Positions 32,900 through 37,536 of a stretch of 64,000 bases of DNA are shown piece by piece. The translations under genes were made by a program, and so were the position numbers. Under the pieces are notes generated by a model. That model saw only the letters and a list, made by a program, of their open reading frames with translations, had not been told where the DNA came from and made no database searches. The stretch's first letter is position 1; the number at the start of each line of letters is the position of its first letter. The DNA comes from Escherichia phage C6, in sequence record MW679410.1; one strand, given 5' to 3'.

Positions 32900-33538
32900 T
32901 TAACCTCGAGCAATCCATTCAACTGCGGCATTATTACGAAGGGATTCGATTGCTGCGATATCGTCCCATGAATTAACCTTTACGGCCAAATTAGGTTTAA
33001 AGTCGCGTTCACCACGAGCTAACCAATAAACTTGGATATCCATGAGAACATTAGATGCTGCATCGCAATGATGAGCCAAATCATCAACATAAAACTTAAT
33101 ACGTTTACCGTACGTATTTTTAGCTCTTATGAAGAGGTCTTCTTTTGATTCTGAATGACCGCACATCAGAATCTCCTTGAATGCGCCAGGGAACAAAGCA
33201 TTCAAATTGAATTGTCTATTCAGCAGGGCATCAATTGAGTCGCCTAGCGCAGTCACGGCTACAAAATCGAAGTCTTTTTTGAGCTTGTTGATATGTTTTA
33301 GTGCGTCCATGTAAGGAGACAGATAACGAATAAAATCTGACTGATTATATTTCTCGATTAAACGAGCGCCCAATTCATTATCACAATTAAACAGCTCGCC
33401 TGGAGATAAGAACCGTTCGTCCTGAATCATATTCAAAATATGTTCTAAAGGCAAATTATATTTCTGTGCGAAATAAGGCAAGCCGGACTGCCAACTTAAA
33501 CATACTCCATCGATATCTGTTAAGATAACTGGTTTCAT
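32900..33538 (-). CDS. HAD-superfamily hydrolase, putative phosphatase or nucleotidase
   Basis: 212 aa; N-terminal VILTDIDGV (HAD motif I DxDG) and a DD pair near the C-terminal third. Confidence 0.7.
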   Translation of the reverse strand: MKPVILTDIDGVCLSWQSGLPYFAQKYNLPLEHILNMIQDERFLSPGELFNCDNELGARLIEKYNQSDFIRYLSPYMDALKHINKLKKDFDFVAVTALGDSIDALLNRQFNLNALFPGAFKEILMCGHSESKEDLFIRAKNTYGKRIKFYVDDLAHHCDAASNVLMDIQVYWLARGERDFKPNLAVKVNSWDDIAAIESLRNNAAVEWIARG

Positions 33539-34002
33539 AATAAATCTCTCAATTTGTTTAGGATGTCGATAAACTCTTTTTCAGTTAGTATTGTATCACA
33601 TTCTGTAAGGTGGCTTGCCATCGAATGCTTTAAAACTTTACCTTTTGTGGATTGTAACGCATCGCGGAATCCTTTGTTCTGGAGCGCTGCTTCAAAATAC
33701 GCACTTTCGTAAAGCTCTTTCCACGCTTCGGAATATCTTGAAAACGGAGTTCCAAGCCAGAACAACGTGCCACGGTCCTGAGCTCTAGCATAAGCTCGAC
33801 CAGCTTTTTGCGCGTCTAACCCGGACATCCCAAATATACGTCTTTGCTGTTCAACATTTTTCACCTTACATCCTTGGAGGAATCCTTCGAGTCCACCAAA
33901 TTGGATACCATCCATAACGAAAGGCCATTTAGCAAAGTTACTTAATGCACATGATGGCCATGGGAAGTTGCTTCTAATTTCTAATTCAGACATCTTTGAC
34001 AC
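33535..34002 (-). CDS. NADAR/YbiA-like domain protein
   Basis: 155 aa; LSNFAKWPFVMDGIQFGGLEGFLQGCK parallels the E. coli YbiA core FSNFAAWPIKVDGKTWPTSEHYFQAQK (recalled from memory). Confidence 0.7.
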   Translation of the reverse strand: MSKMSELEIRSNFPWPSCALSNFAKWPFVMDGIQFGGLEGFLQGCKVKNVEQQRRIFGMSGLDAQKAGRAYARAQDRGTLFWLGTPFSRYSEAWKELYESAYFEAALQNKGFRDALQSTKGKVLKHSMASHLTECDTILTEKEFIDILNKLRDLL

Positions 34003-34198
34003 TTATAATTTCAACATCAGCCCAATGACCATAACCAGGTAGACGGTCTTTAATAGATAATCCACCGTCAAATTTCAGCATTTTAATTGTTTTAGTATAT
34101 GGTTCAATATTTCGGGCCCATGGACTCACGTCTGTCACACGATAAGTAACTTCGACCATTTCTGTGCCCAAAATTTTCTGAATCAGTTTCTTAAACAT
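33986..34198 (-). CDS. Hypothetical early protein, 70 aa
   Basis: Tightly packed ORF in the 30.x cluster; no recognisable motif. Confidence 0.5.
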   Translation of the reverse strand: MFKKLIQKILGTEMVEVTYRVTDVSPWARNIEPYTKTIKMLKFDGGLSIKDRLPGYGHWADVEIISVKDV

Positions 34199-34199
34199 A

Positions 34200-34394
34200 T
34201 TATCCTCGCTTTAAACATTTAATTACAGACAGTTCACCACCCATGCGAACATCTTCAGTTCCATCGACCCATAGGACGGTGTAGGCTTCTTTAATAGTAA
34301 CATTACCTAATTTAAAAGCAGGTAGAACCTTTGAAATCATTCCAGGAATACCTATACCCTTTAATTGGACCGTTTGCGATAAGAATAGTTGCAT
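34200..34394 (-). CDS. Hypothetical early protein, 64 aa
   Basis: Tightly packed ORF; no recognisable motif. Confidence 0.45.
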   Translation of the reverse strand: MQLFLSQTVQLKGIGIPGMISKVLPAFKLGNVTIKEAYTVLWVDGTEDVRMGGELSVIKCLKRG

Positions 34395-34714
34395 TAGAAC
34401 CTCATCTGAAAGCCGTGTGATTTAACATTACCACCATAGATGTCAGACGTATTGACTTCACGTGCAACACTCGGGTCGATATTGATATCACGGTTGAGCT
34501 TAGTGATTGCTAGGGTATCACGACCATTAACAGTACGGAATTCTACCGGGCATACAACATCAGCGTAAGCCTTAATAGATTCACGAGTAGGTTGTTTGTC
34601 GGCAGGAACATCTTTACTTGCTTTAGAGAAAACAACTTCACAGAAATTTTTACGAGTGTCGAAATAAGTGGTCATAAACATAATATTTTCCTCAAAGGAG
34701 GCCGAAGCCTCCAT
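34394..34714 (-). CDS. Hypothetical early protein, about 106 aa
   Basis: ORF with ATGA overlap onto the downstream gene; start uncertain (internal Met candidates). Confidence 0.5.
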   Translation of the reverse strand: MEASASFEENIMFMTTYFDTRKNFCEVVFSKASKDVPADKQPTRESIKAYADVVCPVEFRTVNGRDTLAITKLNRDINIDPSVAREVNTSDIYGGNVKSHGFQMRF

Positions 34715-34722
34715 TTTTAAGA

Positions 34723-35088
34723 TTAGATATCGAATTCGTTCAGAACTACATCAAAGATTGCTTCCAGGTGTTCAGGTTTAGCTCTGTTGCTCAGGATGTG
34801 TCGAATCCAAGTTTTAACCAGAAGCTTACGATTAACACCGTTCCAGCAAGGATGGGTACCTAAATCACGTTGACGGAAATCATCATCTAAAGCGATTTTA
34901 AAAGTAGAACCTTCCATTGTGATTGAAACCGTAATACCATTTTCAAAGCGCATATAAACGTAGTTAGGAGTCATGCACTGCTCGATTTCGCACACCGTGC
35001 CGTTGTTGTGTTTCCACAGGCAAATAACTTCAGAAGAACCAGCGATACCGTTAGAAACATATTTACGTTCGAAGTTGATGTAGTTCAT
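34723..35088 (-). CDS. Hypothetical early protein, 121 aa
   Basis: ORF preceded by an early-promoter cassette at 35130-35158 and the leader ...GGAGAATAAAATG. Confidence 0.6.
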   Translation of the reverse strand: MNYINFERKYVSNGIAGSSEVICLWKHNNGTVCEIEQCMTPNYVYMRFENGITVSITMEGSTFKIALDDDFRQRDLGTHPCWNGVNRKLLVKTWIRHILSNRAKPEHLEAIFDVVLNEFDI

Positions 35089-35118
35089 TTTATTCTCCAG
35101 TTTGTTTTCGTATTATTT

Positions 35119-35158
35119 GGTACAGGTCTATAATAACACAACCTGTACCAAAGTAAAC
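35119..35158 (-). promoter_or_regulatory. Early promoter cassette with stem-loop over the -10 box (PeSL-like)
   Basis: Minus strand GTTTAC, 17-nt spacer, TATTAT; inverted repeat GGTACAGG...CCTGTACC brackets the -10; leader ...GGAGAATAAAATG. Confidence 0.55.
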
Positions 35159-35162
35159 TGTT

Positions 35163-35531
35163 TTATGCAACTTTAATCCAATTATCTAAATTTAATTCAC
35201 CTTTGGCTTTCATTTTTTCAATCAAATCGTCAGCAGTAGTGCGACCATTTTGATACCATGTAACATCTTCAGAATAACCAGTTTCTTCATCTTCATAGGT
35301 CTTACAACGAATCTTACCGATTATGATGGTTTTCAGTTCGTAGGTATCACCGGTAAAAAAGTTTGTTACCATAATTTTCCAAGAGAAGTCATCAGAAGGA
35401 CCTTCCGGAGTCATGCAACCTACAAATTCAAATTGTTCTTTGTACAAGCGCCATTGCATTTCTTTAGTTTCGATTGCTTTGTAACCGTCGTGGTCTTTAC
35501 ATTTGATATATGAGTTAAGATTGATTTTCAT
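35163..35531 (-). CDS. Hypothetical early protein, 122 aa
   Basis: ORF preceded by a near-duplicate of the same promoter/leader cassette (35540-35601). Confidence 0.6.
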   Translation of the reverse strand: MKINLNSYIKCKDHDGYKAIETKEMQWRLYKEQFEFVGCMTPEGPSDDFSWKIMVTNFFTGDTYELKTIIIGKIRCKTYEDEETGYSEDVTWYQNGRTTADDLIEKMKAKGELNLDNWIKVA

Positions 35532-35539
35532 TTTATTCT

Positions 35540-35601
35540 CCAGTTTGTTTTCGTATTATTTGGTACATGTCTATAGTATCATGCCTACTAGAGATGTACA
35601 T
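35540..35601 (-). promoter_or_regulatory. Second copy of the promoter/leader cassette (degenerate -35)
   Basis: Near-duplicate of 35090-35160 (TTTTATTCTCCAGTTTGTTTTCGTATTATTTGGTACA.GTCTATA); -10 TACTAT, -35 region ATGTAC. Confidence 0.4.
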
Positions 35602-35643
35602 ACTTTTTTGCAAATAAAACGAAAAAAGGAACCCGAAGGTTCC

Positions 35644-36000
35644 TTACTTAATGATGATACGAGGATTAAGCTCTGCCGTGTAGTAATTTACAGCCTTAGT
35701 AACTATAGCTTCACCTTTAGGATTTGCCAGAACCCATTCACGGGCTCGTTTGTGAGCTTCTAATTCAGTCAATAATCCGGACCTTTGACACCCTCTGTCT
35801 TGGGTACCTGCTTCTGTTAAAAAAGCAACTAGGTAGATCGCGTTTTCATAAGGCGTGGCGGGCGGTACGTATACAGGCGGGCTTGGCGGGTTATATGCCG
35901 CGGGATGATGTGCCGGAATTCCATCATACGGCCCTGTACCTGGCACCGCGTAAGAGGCGCCGCGAGGAGAAGTAAATGTATGATTATATCTATCGTTCAT
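35644..36000 (-). CDS. Hypothetical proline-rich protein, 118 aa
   Basis: ORF with a Pro-rich N-terminal half (PAAYNPPSPPVYVPPATP); follows the terminator-like hairpin at 36019-36036. Confidence 0.5.
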   Translation of the reverse strand: MNDRYNHTFTSPRGASYAVPGTGPYDGIPAHHPAAYNPPSPPVYVPPATPYENAIYLVAFLTEAGTQDRGCQRSGLLTELEAHKRAREWVLANPKGEAIVTKAVNYYTAELNPRIIIK

Positions 36001-36010
36001 AATATTTCCT

Positions 36011-36036
36011 ACAAAAATGGGACTCCGAAGAGTCCC
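36011..36036 (-). terminator. Terminator after the 53-aa ORF
   Basis: GGGACTC-TTCG-GAGTCCC hairpin followed on the minus strand by AUUUUUG. Confidence 0.6.
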
Positions 36037-36041
36037 ATAAC

Positions 36042-36203
36042 TTATGCCTGAGGCTTACCAAAGCAAGCAGCATCTGCACGCAATACCGCACGAGCACGAG
36101 CTTGAAGCTTATCAACTACCTGATCGATACGCTTGTTGGACGCACGCTTGTAACCAGCGCGTTTAGAGGTACCGTCAACTACTTTAACTTCTTTCTTAGC
36201 CAT
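36042..36203 (-). CDS. Hypothetical small basic protein, 53 aa, not in the ORF track
   Basis: Manual translation MAKKEVKVVDGTSKRAGYKRASNKRIDQVVDKLQARARAVLRADAACFGKPQA; followed by a GC hairpin with UUCG loop and a U-run. Confidence 0.45.
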   Translation of the reverse strand: MAKKEVKVVDGTSKRAGYKRASNKRIDQVVDKLQARARAVLRADAACFGKPQA

Positions 36204-36470
36204 TTTAAATCTCTTAAATTAGAATGCAGGACTTATTGGCGTTGCCTGCGCAAGCCCTCAAGGGGAACATAGGTTTCGGATATTTAACGACAGGATAACC
36301 ATAAACCTCGTCATCATACCAACCACGGCTTAGACAGATAACCTTTTTCTGACGCGTGATAGTACAAAATACATTCAAGAGGTACACCGTAAAATTGTCG
36401 GGGCGGTACTTCTAAAACATACCGATTCGTAAATCGATAATCAGACAATTCGACGGCTCCTCGATTTAAC

Positions 36471-36719
36471 TTACTTCAGGGTAATAATAAAATGACGTAC
36501 TGCTTTACGAGCTGCTGAAGCCAAAGGCTTAGCAAATTTCAGTTCATCTTTAGCTTCCAGTTCAGCAGCCAGAGTAGCCTGAGCCGGATTCAGATGTTTG
36601 AAATAACGCAGGATTTCCAGTGCTTCGGCTTCAACATCAATAGATGCGCCGTAGTTTTCGTGACCGTTGTTCCAAGCGTTGCGTTGCAGTTCAAGAGCGT
36701 GATTCAGTTGTTTGTTCAT
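36471..36719 (-). CDS. rIII: rIII lysis-inhibition accessory protein
   Basis: 82 aa; MNKQLNHALELQRNAWNNGHENYGASIDVEAEALEILRYF... matches T4 rIII in sequence and length (from memory); adjacent to gene 31. Confidence 0.85.
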   Translation of the reverse strand: MNKQLNHALELQRNAWNNGHENYGASIDVEAEALEILRYFKHLNPAQATLAAELEAKDELKFAKPLASAARKAVRHFIITLK

Positions 36720-36857
36720 TTTAGTTTCTCAATTCGAGATAAAGATTGGCGAGCACGTTCGTCTCAGTATTTCCAGCTGAGTTGTATCTCGCCGTATGGA
36801 AGAGGCTAACCCCATACACCAACCGAAGTTCTGTATGACATCAACCTCTTCGTAATT

Positions 36858-37181
36858 TTATTTATACAAGCAAGGAATTGCTTTGTAATGACAGGTAACG
36901 AATTTTTGTTTAATTTCTTTGGGCTGTTTAATACCCAATGCAACCAACGGATGAGGCACGTTAGCAATCTTACCAACAGGAAGTGGAGTCAAATCGCCTA
37001 CTTCACAAAAATCTTCAGGGACATCAGGTCCTACAGAATAAATTTCACAAAGTTCAGGGATTTCACCTTGATGGAGTTTGCCAATAACGATACCAGATGC
37101 AGTAGTTTCTTCATCACCAGCTTGTTTTGGTTCGGAAACGAGAATAACATATTCTCCGACCGCTTTAATAGGAAGTTCCAT
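36858..37181 (-). CDS. 31: Co-chaperonin gp31 (GroES analogue)
   Basis: 107 aa; ...[18 protein letters not shown]...ELC...[20 protein letters not shown]...[31 protein letters not shown] matches T4 gp31. Confidence 0.95.
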
Positions 37182-37239
37182 ATTTAATCCATATTGTTTT
37201 GTTGATAGATTAATAATAACACGCTATTCTTAAAGCATA

Positions 37240-37536
37240 TTACAGGACAAGCAGAGTTTCGGTCTGAAGGCCATTAACAGAAATCAGCTTATCGAAACGG
37301 AATGAACGCCATTGTTGAAGGTCGACATCAAAAACATATAGAGAATTACGTGGGCCTTGTTTACCTGTTTCAGATTTGAAGTCTTCCTTTTTAGGAAGAA
37401 GGTCTAAGTCACGGGTACATTTAAGACGACGAATAGTACCATTAATCTTTTCAAACACCACTTCGTGAATGCCTACGGACAGGATGGTTTTTACTTTTTC
37501 ACAAATGCGAATTGTTTCTTGTTCAGTTAAAATCAT
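37240..37536 (-). CDS. Hypothetical early protein (31.1 position)
   Basis: 98-aa ORF between 31 and cd. Confidence 0.5.
   Translation of the reverse strand: MILTEQETIRICEKVKTILSVGIHEVVFEKINGTIRRLKCTRDLDLLPKKEDFKSETGKQGPRNSLYVFDVDLQQWRSFRFDKLISVNGLQTETLLVL

What the first reader, a model, noticed from the sequence alone, without database searches (positions are those of the whole stretch)
33986..36203. Block of seven small early ORFs with no assignable function, including a proline-rich and a small basic protein
Between the NADAR-like gene and rIII lie ORFs of about 70, 64, 106, 121, 122, 118 and 53 codons with tight spacing or ATGA overlaps. None has a motif I can recognise. The 118-aa protein has a Pro-rich N-terminal half (PAAYNPPSPPVYVPPATP), and the 53-aa protein (manual call, absent from the ORF track) is strongly basic. 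In T4-type phages this 30.x-like region is a known plasticity zone, and small early proteins here are prime candidates for host-shutoff or anti-defence activities.
Basis: inference. Interest (0 to 1): 0.45.

Follow-up and report, generated by a model that had tools for sequence, protein, structure and literature searches.

The report
T4-type phage genes 30.4 to 30.9
The seven small ORFs are real, but they are the already catalogued early accessory genes 30.4–30.9 (plus the cassette gene "30.6A") of a T4-type coliphage, so the finding is ordinary; only 30.5 has a host partner shown by experiment, and that was shown for its T4 counterpart.

Summary
All seven ORFs exist on the minus strand at the stated coordinates. 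One correction: the "106-codon" ORF is really 95 codons and starts at 34681.

The window is a Dhakavirus-like T4-type phage. Six ORFs are syntenic orthologues of T4 genes:
- 30.4 (46% identity)
- 30.5 (68%)
- 30.6 (84%)
- 30.7 (93%, Pfam PF06919)
- 30.8 (39%, PF06019)
- 30.9 (63%; the "small basic protein")

The Pro-rich ORF is the gene annotated "gp30.6A" in Shigella phage SP18. It is an N-terminally truncated member of a small two-domain family specific to T4-like phages. It sits in a cassette with its own hairpin, which the closest relative lacks.

All seven are under purifying selection (dN/dS 0.04–0.40). In T4, 30.4–30.8 are early at both RNA and protein level; 30.9 is early as RNA only.

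T4 30.5 was recently shown to bind host polyphosphate kinase and to trigger the bNACHT11 defence sensor. Nothing supports an anti-defence role.

Profile, PDB and fold searches gave no function for the other six. Gene 30.8 is bracketed by a duplicated 47-nt promoter-leader, and two unrelated-looking alleles occupy that slot in close relatives.

Verdict: already known, function mostly unknown, low interest.

The parts
33986..34198 (-). gp30.4 orthologue (70 aa)
   Evidence: phrog_2042 E 4e-34. 46% identity to T4 30.4 and 72% to SP18 gp30.4. dN/dS 0.30-0.40. Stop overlaps the ATG of 30.3 by 8 nt.
34200..34394 (-). gp30.5 orthologue (64 aa). By orthology, a binder of host polyphosphate kinase and a trigger of bNACHT11.
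   Evidence: 68% identity to T4 30.5 over the full length, in the same slot between 30.6 and 30.4. phrog_1690 E 4e-28. dN/dS 0.18. T4 30.5 function.
34394..34681 (-). gp30.6 orthologue (95 aa).
   Evidence: 84% identity to T4 30.6 starting at residue 12 of the long ORF. phrog_2153 match covers 12-106. The upstream ATG is not in frame in L025, and GAGG lies 8 nt before the ATG at 34681. dN/dS 0.06-0.07.
34697..34712 (-). Intercistronic RNA hairpin GGAGGC-UUCG-GCCUCC between 30.7 and 30.6
   Evidence: Found by the terminator scan. Kept with compensatory changes in SP18 and L016 (GGGGC-GAAA-GCCCC) and in T4.
34723..35088 (-). gp30.7 orthologue (121 aa), the most conserved member of the block
35130..35157 (-). 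T4-type early promoter of 30.7 (TTTACT-16-TATTAT, equivalently GTTTAC-17-TATTAT)
   Evidence: Promoter scan. Aligns base for base with the T4 sequence upstream of 30.7. Fits the TTTACW-N17-TAYWAT consensus quoted in PMC4122927.
35086..35132 (-). Copy 1 of the 47-nt promoter-leader repeat (-10 box, 5' UTR, GGAG, ATG of 30.7)
   Evidence: Two copies in 64 kb, differing at one base; 0 expected by chance.
35163..35531 (-). gp30.8, 122-aa allele
   Evidence: Pfam PF06019 E 1.3e-44. 96% identity to SP18 but only 39% to T4's 110-aa allele. Dhakavirus relatives L006-L009 and L025 carry the 110-aa allele between flanks that are 98-100% identical.
35529..35575 (-). Copy 2 of the 47-nt promoter-leader repeat (upstream of 30.8)
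   Evidence: Both copies are present in 8 Dhakavirus-type sequences (L002, L006-L009, L011 and the window) whichever 30.8 allele they carry. L025 has only the copy upstream of 30.8.
35573..35601 (-). Probable early promoter of 30.8 (ATGTAC-17-TACTAT). With the hairpin just upstream it forms a PeSL-like terminator-promoter unit.
   Evidence: Sequence and coordinates. The -35 box matches GTTTAC at only 4 of 6 positions.
35626..35645 (-). UUCG-tetraloop hairpin plus T-run at the 3' end of 30.6A (part of the cassette)
   Evidence: Terminator scan. Absent together with 30.6A in ABTNLsp5.
35644..36000 (-). 'gp30.6A' (118 aa): a constrained Pro-rich, predicted-disordered N-half plus a ~65-aa alpha/beta C-domain
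   Evidence: 81% identity to SP18 gp30.6A. 100% identical to a protein of Escherichia phage C6. Full length in only 5 of 50,697 phage records. The C-domain is shared with 143-204-aa two-domain proteins. AF2: residues 1-47 below pLDDT 50; strand 54-61, helix 79-92, strand 96-103. pN/pS is 0.083/0.84 for the N-half and 0.143/0.83 for the C-half.
36017..36038 (-). UUCG-tetraloop hairpin plus T-run after 30.9. The left boundary of the 30.6A insertion lies just downstream of it.
36042..36203 (-). gp30.9 orthologue (53 aa, pI 10.5)
   Evidence: phrog_1427 E 5e-27. 63% identity to T4 30.9 and 92% to SP18. Present in all 36 sequences compared (35 related loci plus the window). Invariant core SKRA-YKR--N-RI ... 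RAR-V. dN/dS 0.12-0.34. In T4 the transcript is early but the protein was not detected.

Best explanation
The block is the 30.4-30.9 early accessory gene cluster of a T4-type (Dhakavirus-like) coliphage, transcribed leftward on the minus strand.

Shown:
- Six ORFs are syntenic orthologues of T4 30.4, 30.5, 30.6, 30.7, 30.8 and 30.9.
- The seventh, the Pro-rich ORF, is the gene annotated gp30.6A. It consists of an RBS, the ORF and its own hairpin. It is inserted after the 30.9 hairpin and ahead of the 30.8 promoter, and the nearest relative lacks it.
- All seven evolve as proteins under purifying selection.
- 30.7 and 30.8 each carry a T4-type early promoter. 30.6, 30.5, 30.4 and 30.3 follow 30.7 with overlapping or abutting codons, as one translationally coupled unit.

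Inferred from T4 data: the genes are expressed in the first minutes of infection, and the 64-aa protein binds host polyphosphate kinase (Ppk) and can be sensed by the NLR-like sensor bNACHT11.

Inferred, weaker: the other six are likewise small non-enzymatic binders of host components.
- gp30.7 is a compact sheet-plus-two-helix protein with an invariant Arg/His/Asn/Lys-rich loop (R72-K88), probably a ligand or partner site.
- gp30.9 is a short basic protein, probably helical, that would bind an acidic partner or nucleic acid.
- gp30.6A is an N-terminally truncated member of a two-domain family found only in T4-like phages. Its linker has expanded into a constrained Pro/Tyr-rich tail.

Variation in the block (30.6A present or absent, two 30.8 alleles, 30.6 replaced in Mosigvirus) most likely arises by recombination in the repeated hairpin, promoter and leader sequences between genes. 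This is the PeSL model.
For: Identity and synteny: megablast finds 791 T4-type phage records, the best being a Dhakavirus at 95.5%. The annotated regions of SP18, ABTNLsp5 and T4 line up gene for gene. BLASTP identities to T4 are 39-93%. The gene-order map covers the window plus 35 related loci.

Families: PF06919 and PF06019 match at full length, and every ORF has a PHROG.

Coding: dN/dS is 0.04-0.40.

Expression: promoters are homologous to those in T4. In T4, 30.4-30.8 are early as RNA and as protein, and 30.9 is early as RNA.

30.5 function: T4 30.5 co-purifies with Ppk, confirmed by reciprocal immunoprecipitation. Co-expression with bNACHT11 blocks colony formation, and deleting 30.5 contributes to escape.

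30.6A: cassette boundaries; fixed position after 30.9 in three more contigs; family relations.

Recombination substrates: the 47-nt repeat brackets 30.8 in the Dhakavirus loci that carry either allele. PeSL description.
Against: No function is demonstrated for this phage's proteins; everything functional is transferred from T4.

For six of the seven there is no experimental or homology-based function at all:
- Pfam, NCBIfam and PADLOC gave nothing informative.
- PDB sequence and profile searches were negative.

Other weaknesses:
- 68% identity does not guarantee that Ppk binding is kept.
- T4 30.9 protein was not detected by proteomics.
- The 30.8 promoter has a weak -35 box.
- The promoter scan as a whole found no more sites than in shuffled sequence, so the promoter calls rest on homology to T4.
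- The 30.6A model is of low confidence (pLDDT 54).
Confidence: 0.85

Rival explanations
1. One or more of the seven proteins is a dedicated inhibitor of a bacterial defence system, or a host shut-off factor.
For: The genes are early, small, non-essential-looking and variable between relatives. The replacement of one 30.8 allele by another between identical flanks looks like arms-race turnover.
Against: No similarity to any characterised inhibitor was found. PADLOC, Pfam, NCBIfam and PDB searches were all negative. The only characterised member, T4 30.5, activates a defence system rather than inhibiting one, and its partner is a metabolic kinase. No curated anti-defence library was available, so this test is incomplete.
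Confidence: 0.2
2. gp30.6A is a decaying remnant (pseudogene-like fragment) of a two-domain gene, not a functional protein.
For: It lacks the N-terminal domain present in nearly all of the 62 representative clusters. It has no promoter of its own and lies downstream of a terminator-like hairpin. It is absent from the closest relative. Its structure model is poor.
Against: Between the window and SP18, synonymous sites are saturated (pS 0.84), yet amino-acid change is low in both halves (pN 0.083 and 0.143). The ORF is intact with an AGGA ribosome-binding site in the window, SP18, P0002 and P0003.
Confidence: 0.08
3. Some of the ORFs, especially the 53-aa one, are chance ORFs or the region acts as RNA.
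For: T4 30.9 protein was not detected by proteomics. The spacer upstream of 30.9 is more conserved than the gene itself.
Against: The 30.9 ORF is intact in all 36 sequences compared, with an invariant peptide core and dN/dS of 0.12-0.34. There are no Rfam matches in 33400-37300. All the other ORFs have strong family matches.
Confidence: 0.02

Closest known systems
Bacteriophage T4 genes 30.4, 30.5, 30.6, 30.7, 30.8, 30.9 (AF158101, 128758-130540)
   Same: Same order, same strand and same flanks (30.3 on one side, rIII on the other). Lengths are nearly the same. Identity is 46, 68, 84, 93, 39 and 63% respectively. The early promoter upstream of 30.7 is homologous, and so is the hairpin between 30.7 and 30.6.
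   Different: The window has an extra gene (30.6A) between 30.9 and 30.8. It carries the 122-aa allele of 30.8 where T4 has the 110-aa allele. It has a duplicated 47-nt leader that T4 lacks.
Shigella phage SP18 (Gaprivervirus) gp30.4-gp30.9, including gp30.6A
   Same: All seven genes are present in the same order, including 30.6A (81% identity) and the 122-aa 30.8 (96%).
   Different: SP18 has a different backbone (about 84% nucleotide identity). It lacks the 47-nt leader duplication and has a longer rIII-30.9 spacer.
T4 30.5 as a bNACHT11 activator and Ppk-binding protein (bioRxiv 10.1101/2024.12.17.629029)
   Same: The window's 64-aa ORF is the positional orthologue, with 68% identity over the full length.
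   Different: Binding to Ppk and activation of bNACHT11 were shown only for the T4 protein. They were not tested for this one.
PeSL elements (promoter-early stem-loops) of T4-type hyperplastic regions (PMC2839356, PMC4122927)
   Same: Terminator-like UUCG hairpins followed by early promoters sit between 30.6A and 30.8. The 30.6A indel begins just after one such hairpin and ends just before the promoter. Repeated regulatory sequence brackets the variable gene 30.8.
   Different: The repeat here is the -10 box, leader and RBS rather than the stem-loop. The stem sequences differ from one hairpin to the next. The recombination itself is inferred, not observed.
Two-domain proteins of T4-like phages (PHROG 17531; HX01 gp264, 204 aa; CkP1_0221-0226; 158-aa proteins of Klebsiella, Erwinia and Enterobacter T4-likes)
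   Same: The C-terminal ~65 residues of 30.6A align with their C-domain, at 61-67% identity to the Mosigvirus form. The profile E-value is 1e-22.
   Different: 30.6A lacks the ~90-aa N-terminal domain and instead has a Pro/Tyr-rich segment predicted to be disordered. It matches only positions 124-189 of the 204-position PHROG profile.

Membership tests
Pfam PF06919 (Phage_T4_Gp30_7) | Full-length match to the family HMM above the gathering score (27 bits) | tested here: met
   173.4 bits, E 1.7e-51, residues 1-120 against profile positions 1-118 of 118.
Pfam PF06019 (Phage_30_8) | Full-length match to the family HMM above the gathering score (25 bits) | tested here: met
   151.5 bits, E 1.3e-44, residues 2-121 against profile positions 3-123 of 124.
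T4 30.4-30.9 orthologue set | Best match to the named T4 gene plus conserved position between 30.3 and rIII | tested here: met
   BLASTP E 1e-18 to 1e-87 for six ORFs, each matching the T4 gene in the same position. Not met for the 118-aa ORF, which has no T4 counterpart.
T4 30.5-type Ppk binder and bNACHT11 activator | Sequence orthology to T4 30.5 | tested here: met
   68% identity over 62 of 64 residues, same slot.
T4 30.5-type Ppk binder and bNACHT11 activator | Physical binding to E. coli polyphosphate kinase | not testable with these tools
   Shown only for T4 30.5, by immunoprecipitation and mass spectrometry with reciprocal immunoprecipitation.
T4 30.5-type Ppk binder and bNACHT11 activator | Activation of bNACHT11 (loss of colony formation on co-expression) | not testable with these tools
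   Shown only for T4 30.5.
PeSL (promoter-early stem-loop) element | Terminator-like stem-loop immediately followed by an early promoter (TTTACW-N17-TAYWAT in the T4/PST group) | tested here: inconclusive
   A hairpin at 35645-35626 is followed by ATGTAC-17-TACTAT at 35601-35573. The -10 box fits, but the -35 box matches at only 4 of 6 positions. The 30.7 promoter fits fully but has no hairpin in front of it.
PeSL (promoter-early stem-loop) element | Located at indel or replacement boundaries between close relatives | tested here: met
   The 30.6A indel against ABTNLsp5 starts after the 30.9 hairpin and ends before the 30.8 promoter. The 30.8 alleles are swapped between identical leader repeats.
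Two-domain T4-like family (PHROG 17531) | N-terminal ~90-aa domain plus C-terminal ~65-aa alpha/beta domain | tested here: not met
   Only the C-domain is present (PHROG positions 124-189 of 204). Nearly all representative clusters are 143-181 aa and two-domain. 30.6A is therefore a truncated variant, not a standard member.
HicB/UPF0150-like antitoxin fold (considered for the 30.6A C-domain because of a T-x-EEA helix motif) | Structural similarity to solved HicB-like domains | tested here: not met
Known defence and anti-defence proteins | Profile match to a curated model | tested here: not met
   PADLOC-DB gave no hits at E<=1 for any of the seven ORFs. PADLOC covers defence systems. No curated anti-defence library was available, so the test is incomplete.
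Apidaecin-type proline-rich antimicrobial peptides (considered for the Pro-rich half of 30.6A) | C-terminal PRPPHPRL pharmacophore with a free C-terminus, in a cationic peptide | tested here: not met
   Only the pentapeptide PVY[IV]P is shared with GNNRPVYIPQPRPPHPRL (sequence confirmed). The segment is internal, is not Arg-rich and lacks PRPPHPRL. That the C-terminal motif is the critical part is from my own knowledge.

The most novel reading that the evidence does not exclude
Like T4 30.5 (which binds Ppk) and the T2 proteins gp6 and gp57 (which bind CoaA and GlpK), several other members of this block may each bind a different host metabolic enzyme. Those same small proteins may also be what NLR-like sensors such as bNACHT11 detect. 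On this reading, the allele replacement at 30.8 and the N-terminally truncated 30.6A, with its constrained Pro/Tyr-rich tail, would be escape or neofunctionalised variants produced by that sensing pressure.
Probability: 0.15. Interest if true: 0.55.

Novelty: already known. Interest (0 to 1): 0.2.

Why it matters
The practical value is small. The work gives correct gene names, a corrected start for 30.6, and one transferable functional lead: the 30.5 orthologue should bind Ppk and trigger bNACHT11.

The block remains a compact set of conserved, early-expressed T4-type proteins of unknown function. gp30.7 is 93% identical to its T4 counterpart and has no confident structural neighbour, so it is a reasonable target for the kind of host-partner pull-down that worked for 30.5.

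The duplicated 47-nt leader around 30.8, with two alleles in that slot within one genus, is a clean natural example of cassette exchange in repeated regulatory sequence. It illustrates a known model rather than adding a new one.

Tried and rejected
1. 30.8 as a relative of the two-domain family. The idea came from the chimeric protein P0035 and a shared WFT motif. hhalign probability was below 1%, and no pair among the 30.4, 30.5, 30.6, 30.7, 30.8, 30.9, CK_220 and two-domain profiles exceeded 5%. P0035 is simply a recombinant.

4. PDB sequence and profile searches for 30.4, 30.5, 30.6, 30.7, 30.8, 30.9 and the two-domain family found nothing below E 0.01.

5. NCBIfam and PADLOC found nothing.

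6. Rfam on 33400-37300 found nothing.

7. A structured RNA in the rIII-30.9 spacer: z-score -1.18, not significant. A conserved micro-ORF there is interrupted by a stop codon in HX01 and by frameshifts in T4.

8. An apidaecin-like motif in the Pro-rich tail: only five residues are shared.

9. Literature searches on gene numbers were mostly noise. Only 30.5 has a published function among the papers searched.

10. Foreign origin of 30.6A. Its N-half is 56% GC against 40% for the window, but GC3 is only 0.44, so the excess comes from Pro, Ala and Gly codons and not from a different codon usage.


Full report
**Observation.** The Pro-rich string PAAYNPPSPPVYVPPATP is in the 118-aa ORF (35644-36000).

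**What the window is.** Megablast of 33500-36800 against 50,697 phage records hits 791 T4-type phages. The best is Salmonella phage ABTNLsp5 (Dhakavirus) at 95.5%. The annotated regions of SP18, ABTNLsp5 and T4 show the same gene order as the window: gp30 ligase, 30.1, 30.2, 30.3, then the block, then rIII and gp31. The 118-aa protein is 100% identical to a protein of Escherichia phage C6, so the window probably comes from that phage or a near-identical one.

**Identity of each ORF.** BLASTP against translated T4 and SP18 genes gives:

| ORF | Gene | Identity to T4 | Identity to SP18 |
|---|---|---|---|
| 33986-34198 | 30.4 | 46% | 72% |
| 34200-34394 | 30.5 | 68% | 88% |
| 34394-34714 | 30.6 | 84% (from residue 12) | 84% |
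| 34723-35088 | 30.7 | 93% | 92% |
| 35163-35531 | 30.8 | 39% | 96% |
| 35644-36000 | SP18 "gp30.6A" | no counterpart | 81% |
| 36042-36203 | 30.9 | 63% | 92% |

Pfam recognises 30.7 (PF06919, E 1.7e-51) and 30.8 (PF06019, E 1.3e-44) at full length. Every ORF has a PHROG of unknown function. A gene-order map of the window plus 35 related loci shows which genes are stable. 30.9 and 30.7 are present in every sequence compared, 30.5 in all but one and 30.8 in all but three. 30.6, 30.4 and 30.3 come and go.

**Correction to 30.6.** The upstream ATG at 34714 lies inside the hairpin GGAGGC-UUCG-GCCUCC (34712-34697). That hairpin is kept in relatives through compensatory changes: GGGGC-GAAA-GCCCC in SP18 and L016. 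In L025 the upstream ATG is out of frame. A GAGG sits 8 nt before the conserved ATGTTTATGACC. The gene therefore starts at 34681 and encodes 95 aa, as in T4.

**Are they genes?** Nei-Gojobori comparisons with SP18 and T4 give dN/dS of 0.04-0.40 for all seven. For 30.6A, synonymous sites are saturated (pS 0.84) while pN is 0.083 in the Pro-rich half and 0.143 in the C-terminal half. The low-complexity half is therefore constrained as a peptide too. In T4, Table S2 of PMC9697503 classes 30.4-30.8 as early for both protein and transcript. For 30.9 the transcript is early but the protein was not detected.

**Transcription anatomy.**
- Upstream of 30.7 is GTTTAC-17-TATTAT (35158-35130). It aligns base for base with the T4 sequence upstream of 30.7 and fits the TTTACW-N17-TAYWAT consensus for the T4 group quoted in PMC4122927.
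- Upstream of 30.8 is a UUCG hairpin with a T-run (35645-35626), followed by ATGTAC-17-TACTAT (35601-35573). This is a PeSL-like terminator-promoter unit with a weak -35 box.
- A second UUCG hairpin (36038-36017) follows 30.9.
- 30.6, 30.5, 30.4 and 30.3 follow 30.7 with 1-nt or 8-nt overlaps or a 1-nt gap, so they are probably translated as a coupled unit.
- Taken alone, the promoter scan finds no more sites than in shuffled sequence. The promoter calls therefore rest on homology to T4.

**Plasticity.**
1. 30.6A is an indel. Aligned with ABTNLsp5, the window has an insert of RBS, ORF and hairpin placed right after the 30.9 hairpin and before the 30.8 promoter. Full-length 30.6A occurs in only 5 of 50,697 phage records. 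In three further contigs it again directly follows the 53-aa 30.9.
2. A 47-nt stretch is duplicated upstream of both 30.7 and 30.8, with a single base difference (35086-35132 and 35529-35575). It covers the -10 box, leader, GGAG and ATG. No such repeat is expected by chance, and the two copies bracket 30.8. Both copies are present in the Dhakavirus-type loci L002, L006-L009 and L011 (L025 has one). Yet those phages carry either the 122-aa or the 110-aa allele of 30.8, which are only 37-39% identical, between flanks that are 98-100% identical. This points to cassette exchange by recombination in the repeated regulatory sequence, as in the PeSL model. The recombination is inferred, not observed.
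3. In Mosigvirus HX01 the 30.6 slot holds a 204-aa protein instead.

**The Pro-rich protein.**
- Its C-terminal ~65 residues match the C-domain of a two-domain family. Members include HX01 gp264, five tandem paralogues in Citrobacter phage CkP1, and 158-aa proteins of Klebsiella and Erwinia T4-likes.
- A full HMMER scan of 1.84 billion representatives finds only 62 clusters, nearly all of 143-181 aa. The 118-aa form is the outlier that lacks the N-domain.
- The first residues, MNDRYNHTFTSPRGASY, align with the linker of the HX01 protein (MWRHNSPFGSKGTF). The gene therefore looks like an N-terminal truncation with an expanded linker.
- The family has no Pfam model apart from two weak FRD2 hits.

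**The other proteins.**
- gp30.9 has an invariant core SKRA-YKR--N-RI followed by RAR-V and no detectable relatives of known structure.
- PDB profile searches for 30.4, 30.5, 30.6 and 30.8 were negative.
- No profile-profile relationship links any two families in the block.

**The one functional handle.** A 2024-2026 preprint (10.1101/2024.12.17.629029) reports four things about T4 30.5:
- It activates the NLR-related sensor bNACHT11 on co-expression.
- Its deletion, together with deletion of two other activators, lets T4 escape.
- It co-purifies with host polyphosphate kinase.
- That interaction was confirmed by reciprocal immunoprecipitation.

The window's 64-aa ORF is the positional orthologue at 68% identity, so this is its most likely activity. 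No similar information was found for the other six.

**Verdict.** They are the well-catalogued 30.4-30.9 block plus the annotated cassette gene 30.6A, so there is no new element here. The anti-defence suggestion has no support, and the only characterised member is a defence trigger that binds a host kinase. Interest is low. What remains of interest is that six conserved early proteins still have no function, gp30.7 above all.

Noticed in passing
window 36201-36320 and 36371-36467 (spacer between rIII and 30.9, minus strand): Two non-coding blocks are about 95% conserved between the window, T4, SP18 and HX01. They are more conserved than the 30.9 gene they precede. A variable insert separates them: about 0 nt in T4, about 50 nt here and about 190 nt in SP18. 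Block A holds a CGAUU-UACG-AAUCG hairpin and a candidate early promoter (TTTTAC-17-TATTTT, 36394-36366). Block B would be a conserved ~120-nt leader of 30.9. There is no Rfam match, the fold z-score is -1.18, and no conserved micro-ORF survives (stop codon in HX01, frameshifts in T4).
   Followed up: partly
window 35086-35132 and 35529-35575: A 47-nt direct repeat (promoter -10 box, 5' UTR, RBS and ATG) brackets gene 30.8. It is specific to Dhakavirus-type genomes and is present whichever of the two 30.8 alleles is carried.
   Followed up: yes
L005 (Citrobacter phage CkP1) 2752-5683: Five paralogues of the two-domain family (CkP1_0226, 0225, 0224, 0223, 0221) lie around gene 30.7. This is a local expansion of the family whose C-domain survives in 30.6A.
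   Followed up: partly
protein P0035 (Enterobacter phage vB_VIPECLOM01, 153 aa): A natural chimera: the N-terminal part is 30.8-like (PF06019), joined at a WFT motif to the C-terminal part of the two-domain family. It is evidence of recombination between neighbouring accessory genes.
   Followed up: partly
protein P0092 (ENA contig, 154 aa); locus L009: P0092 carries both PF08010 (30.3) and PF06919 (30.7), which suggests a deletion fusing 30.7 to 30.3 and removing 30.6-30.4. In L009, 30.6 is cut to 66 aa and 30.3 to 119 aa. Both suggest these genes are dispensable.
   Followed up: no
window 33535-34002 (gene 30.3) and 32900-33538 (gene 30.2): The mechanical ORF for 30.3 starts at a GTG (155 aa). 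All relatives start at the ATG three codons later (33993, 152 aa). Pfam assigns it to PF08010 only; no NADAR model hit at E<=1. Gene 30.2 is 212 aa here and in Dhakavirus relatives, against 270-289 aa in T4 and SP18.
   Followed up: no
window 35775-35999: A local GC peak (53-56% against 40% for the window) coincides with the Pro-rich half of 30.6A. GC3 is only 0.44, so the peak reflects Pro, Ala and Gly codons rather than foreign codon usage. The GC-rich stretch also produces an 83-aa antisense ORF (35724-35975, + strand) that has no support.
   Followed up: partly
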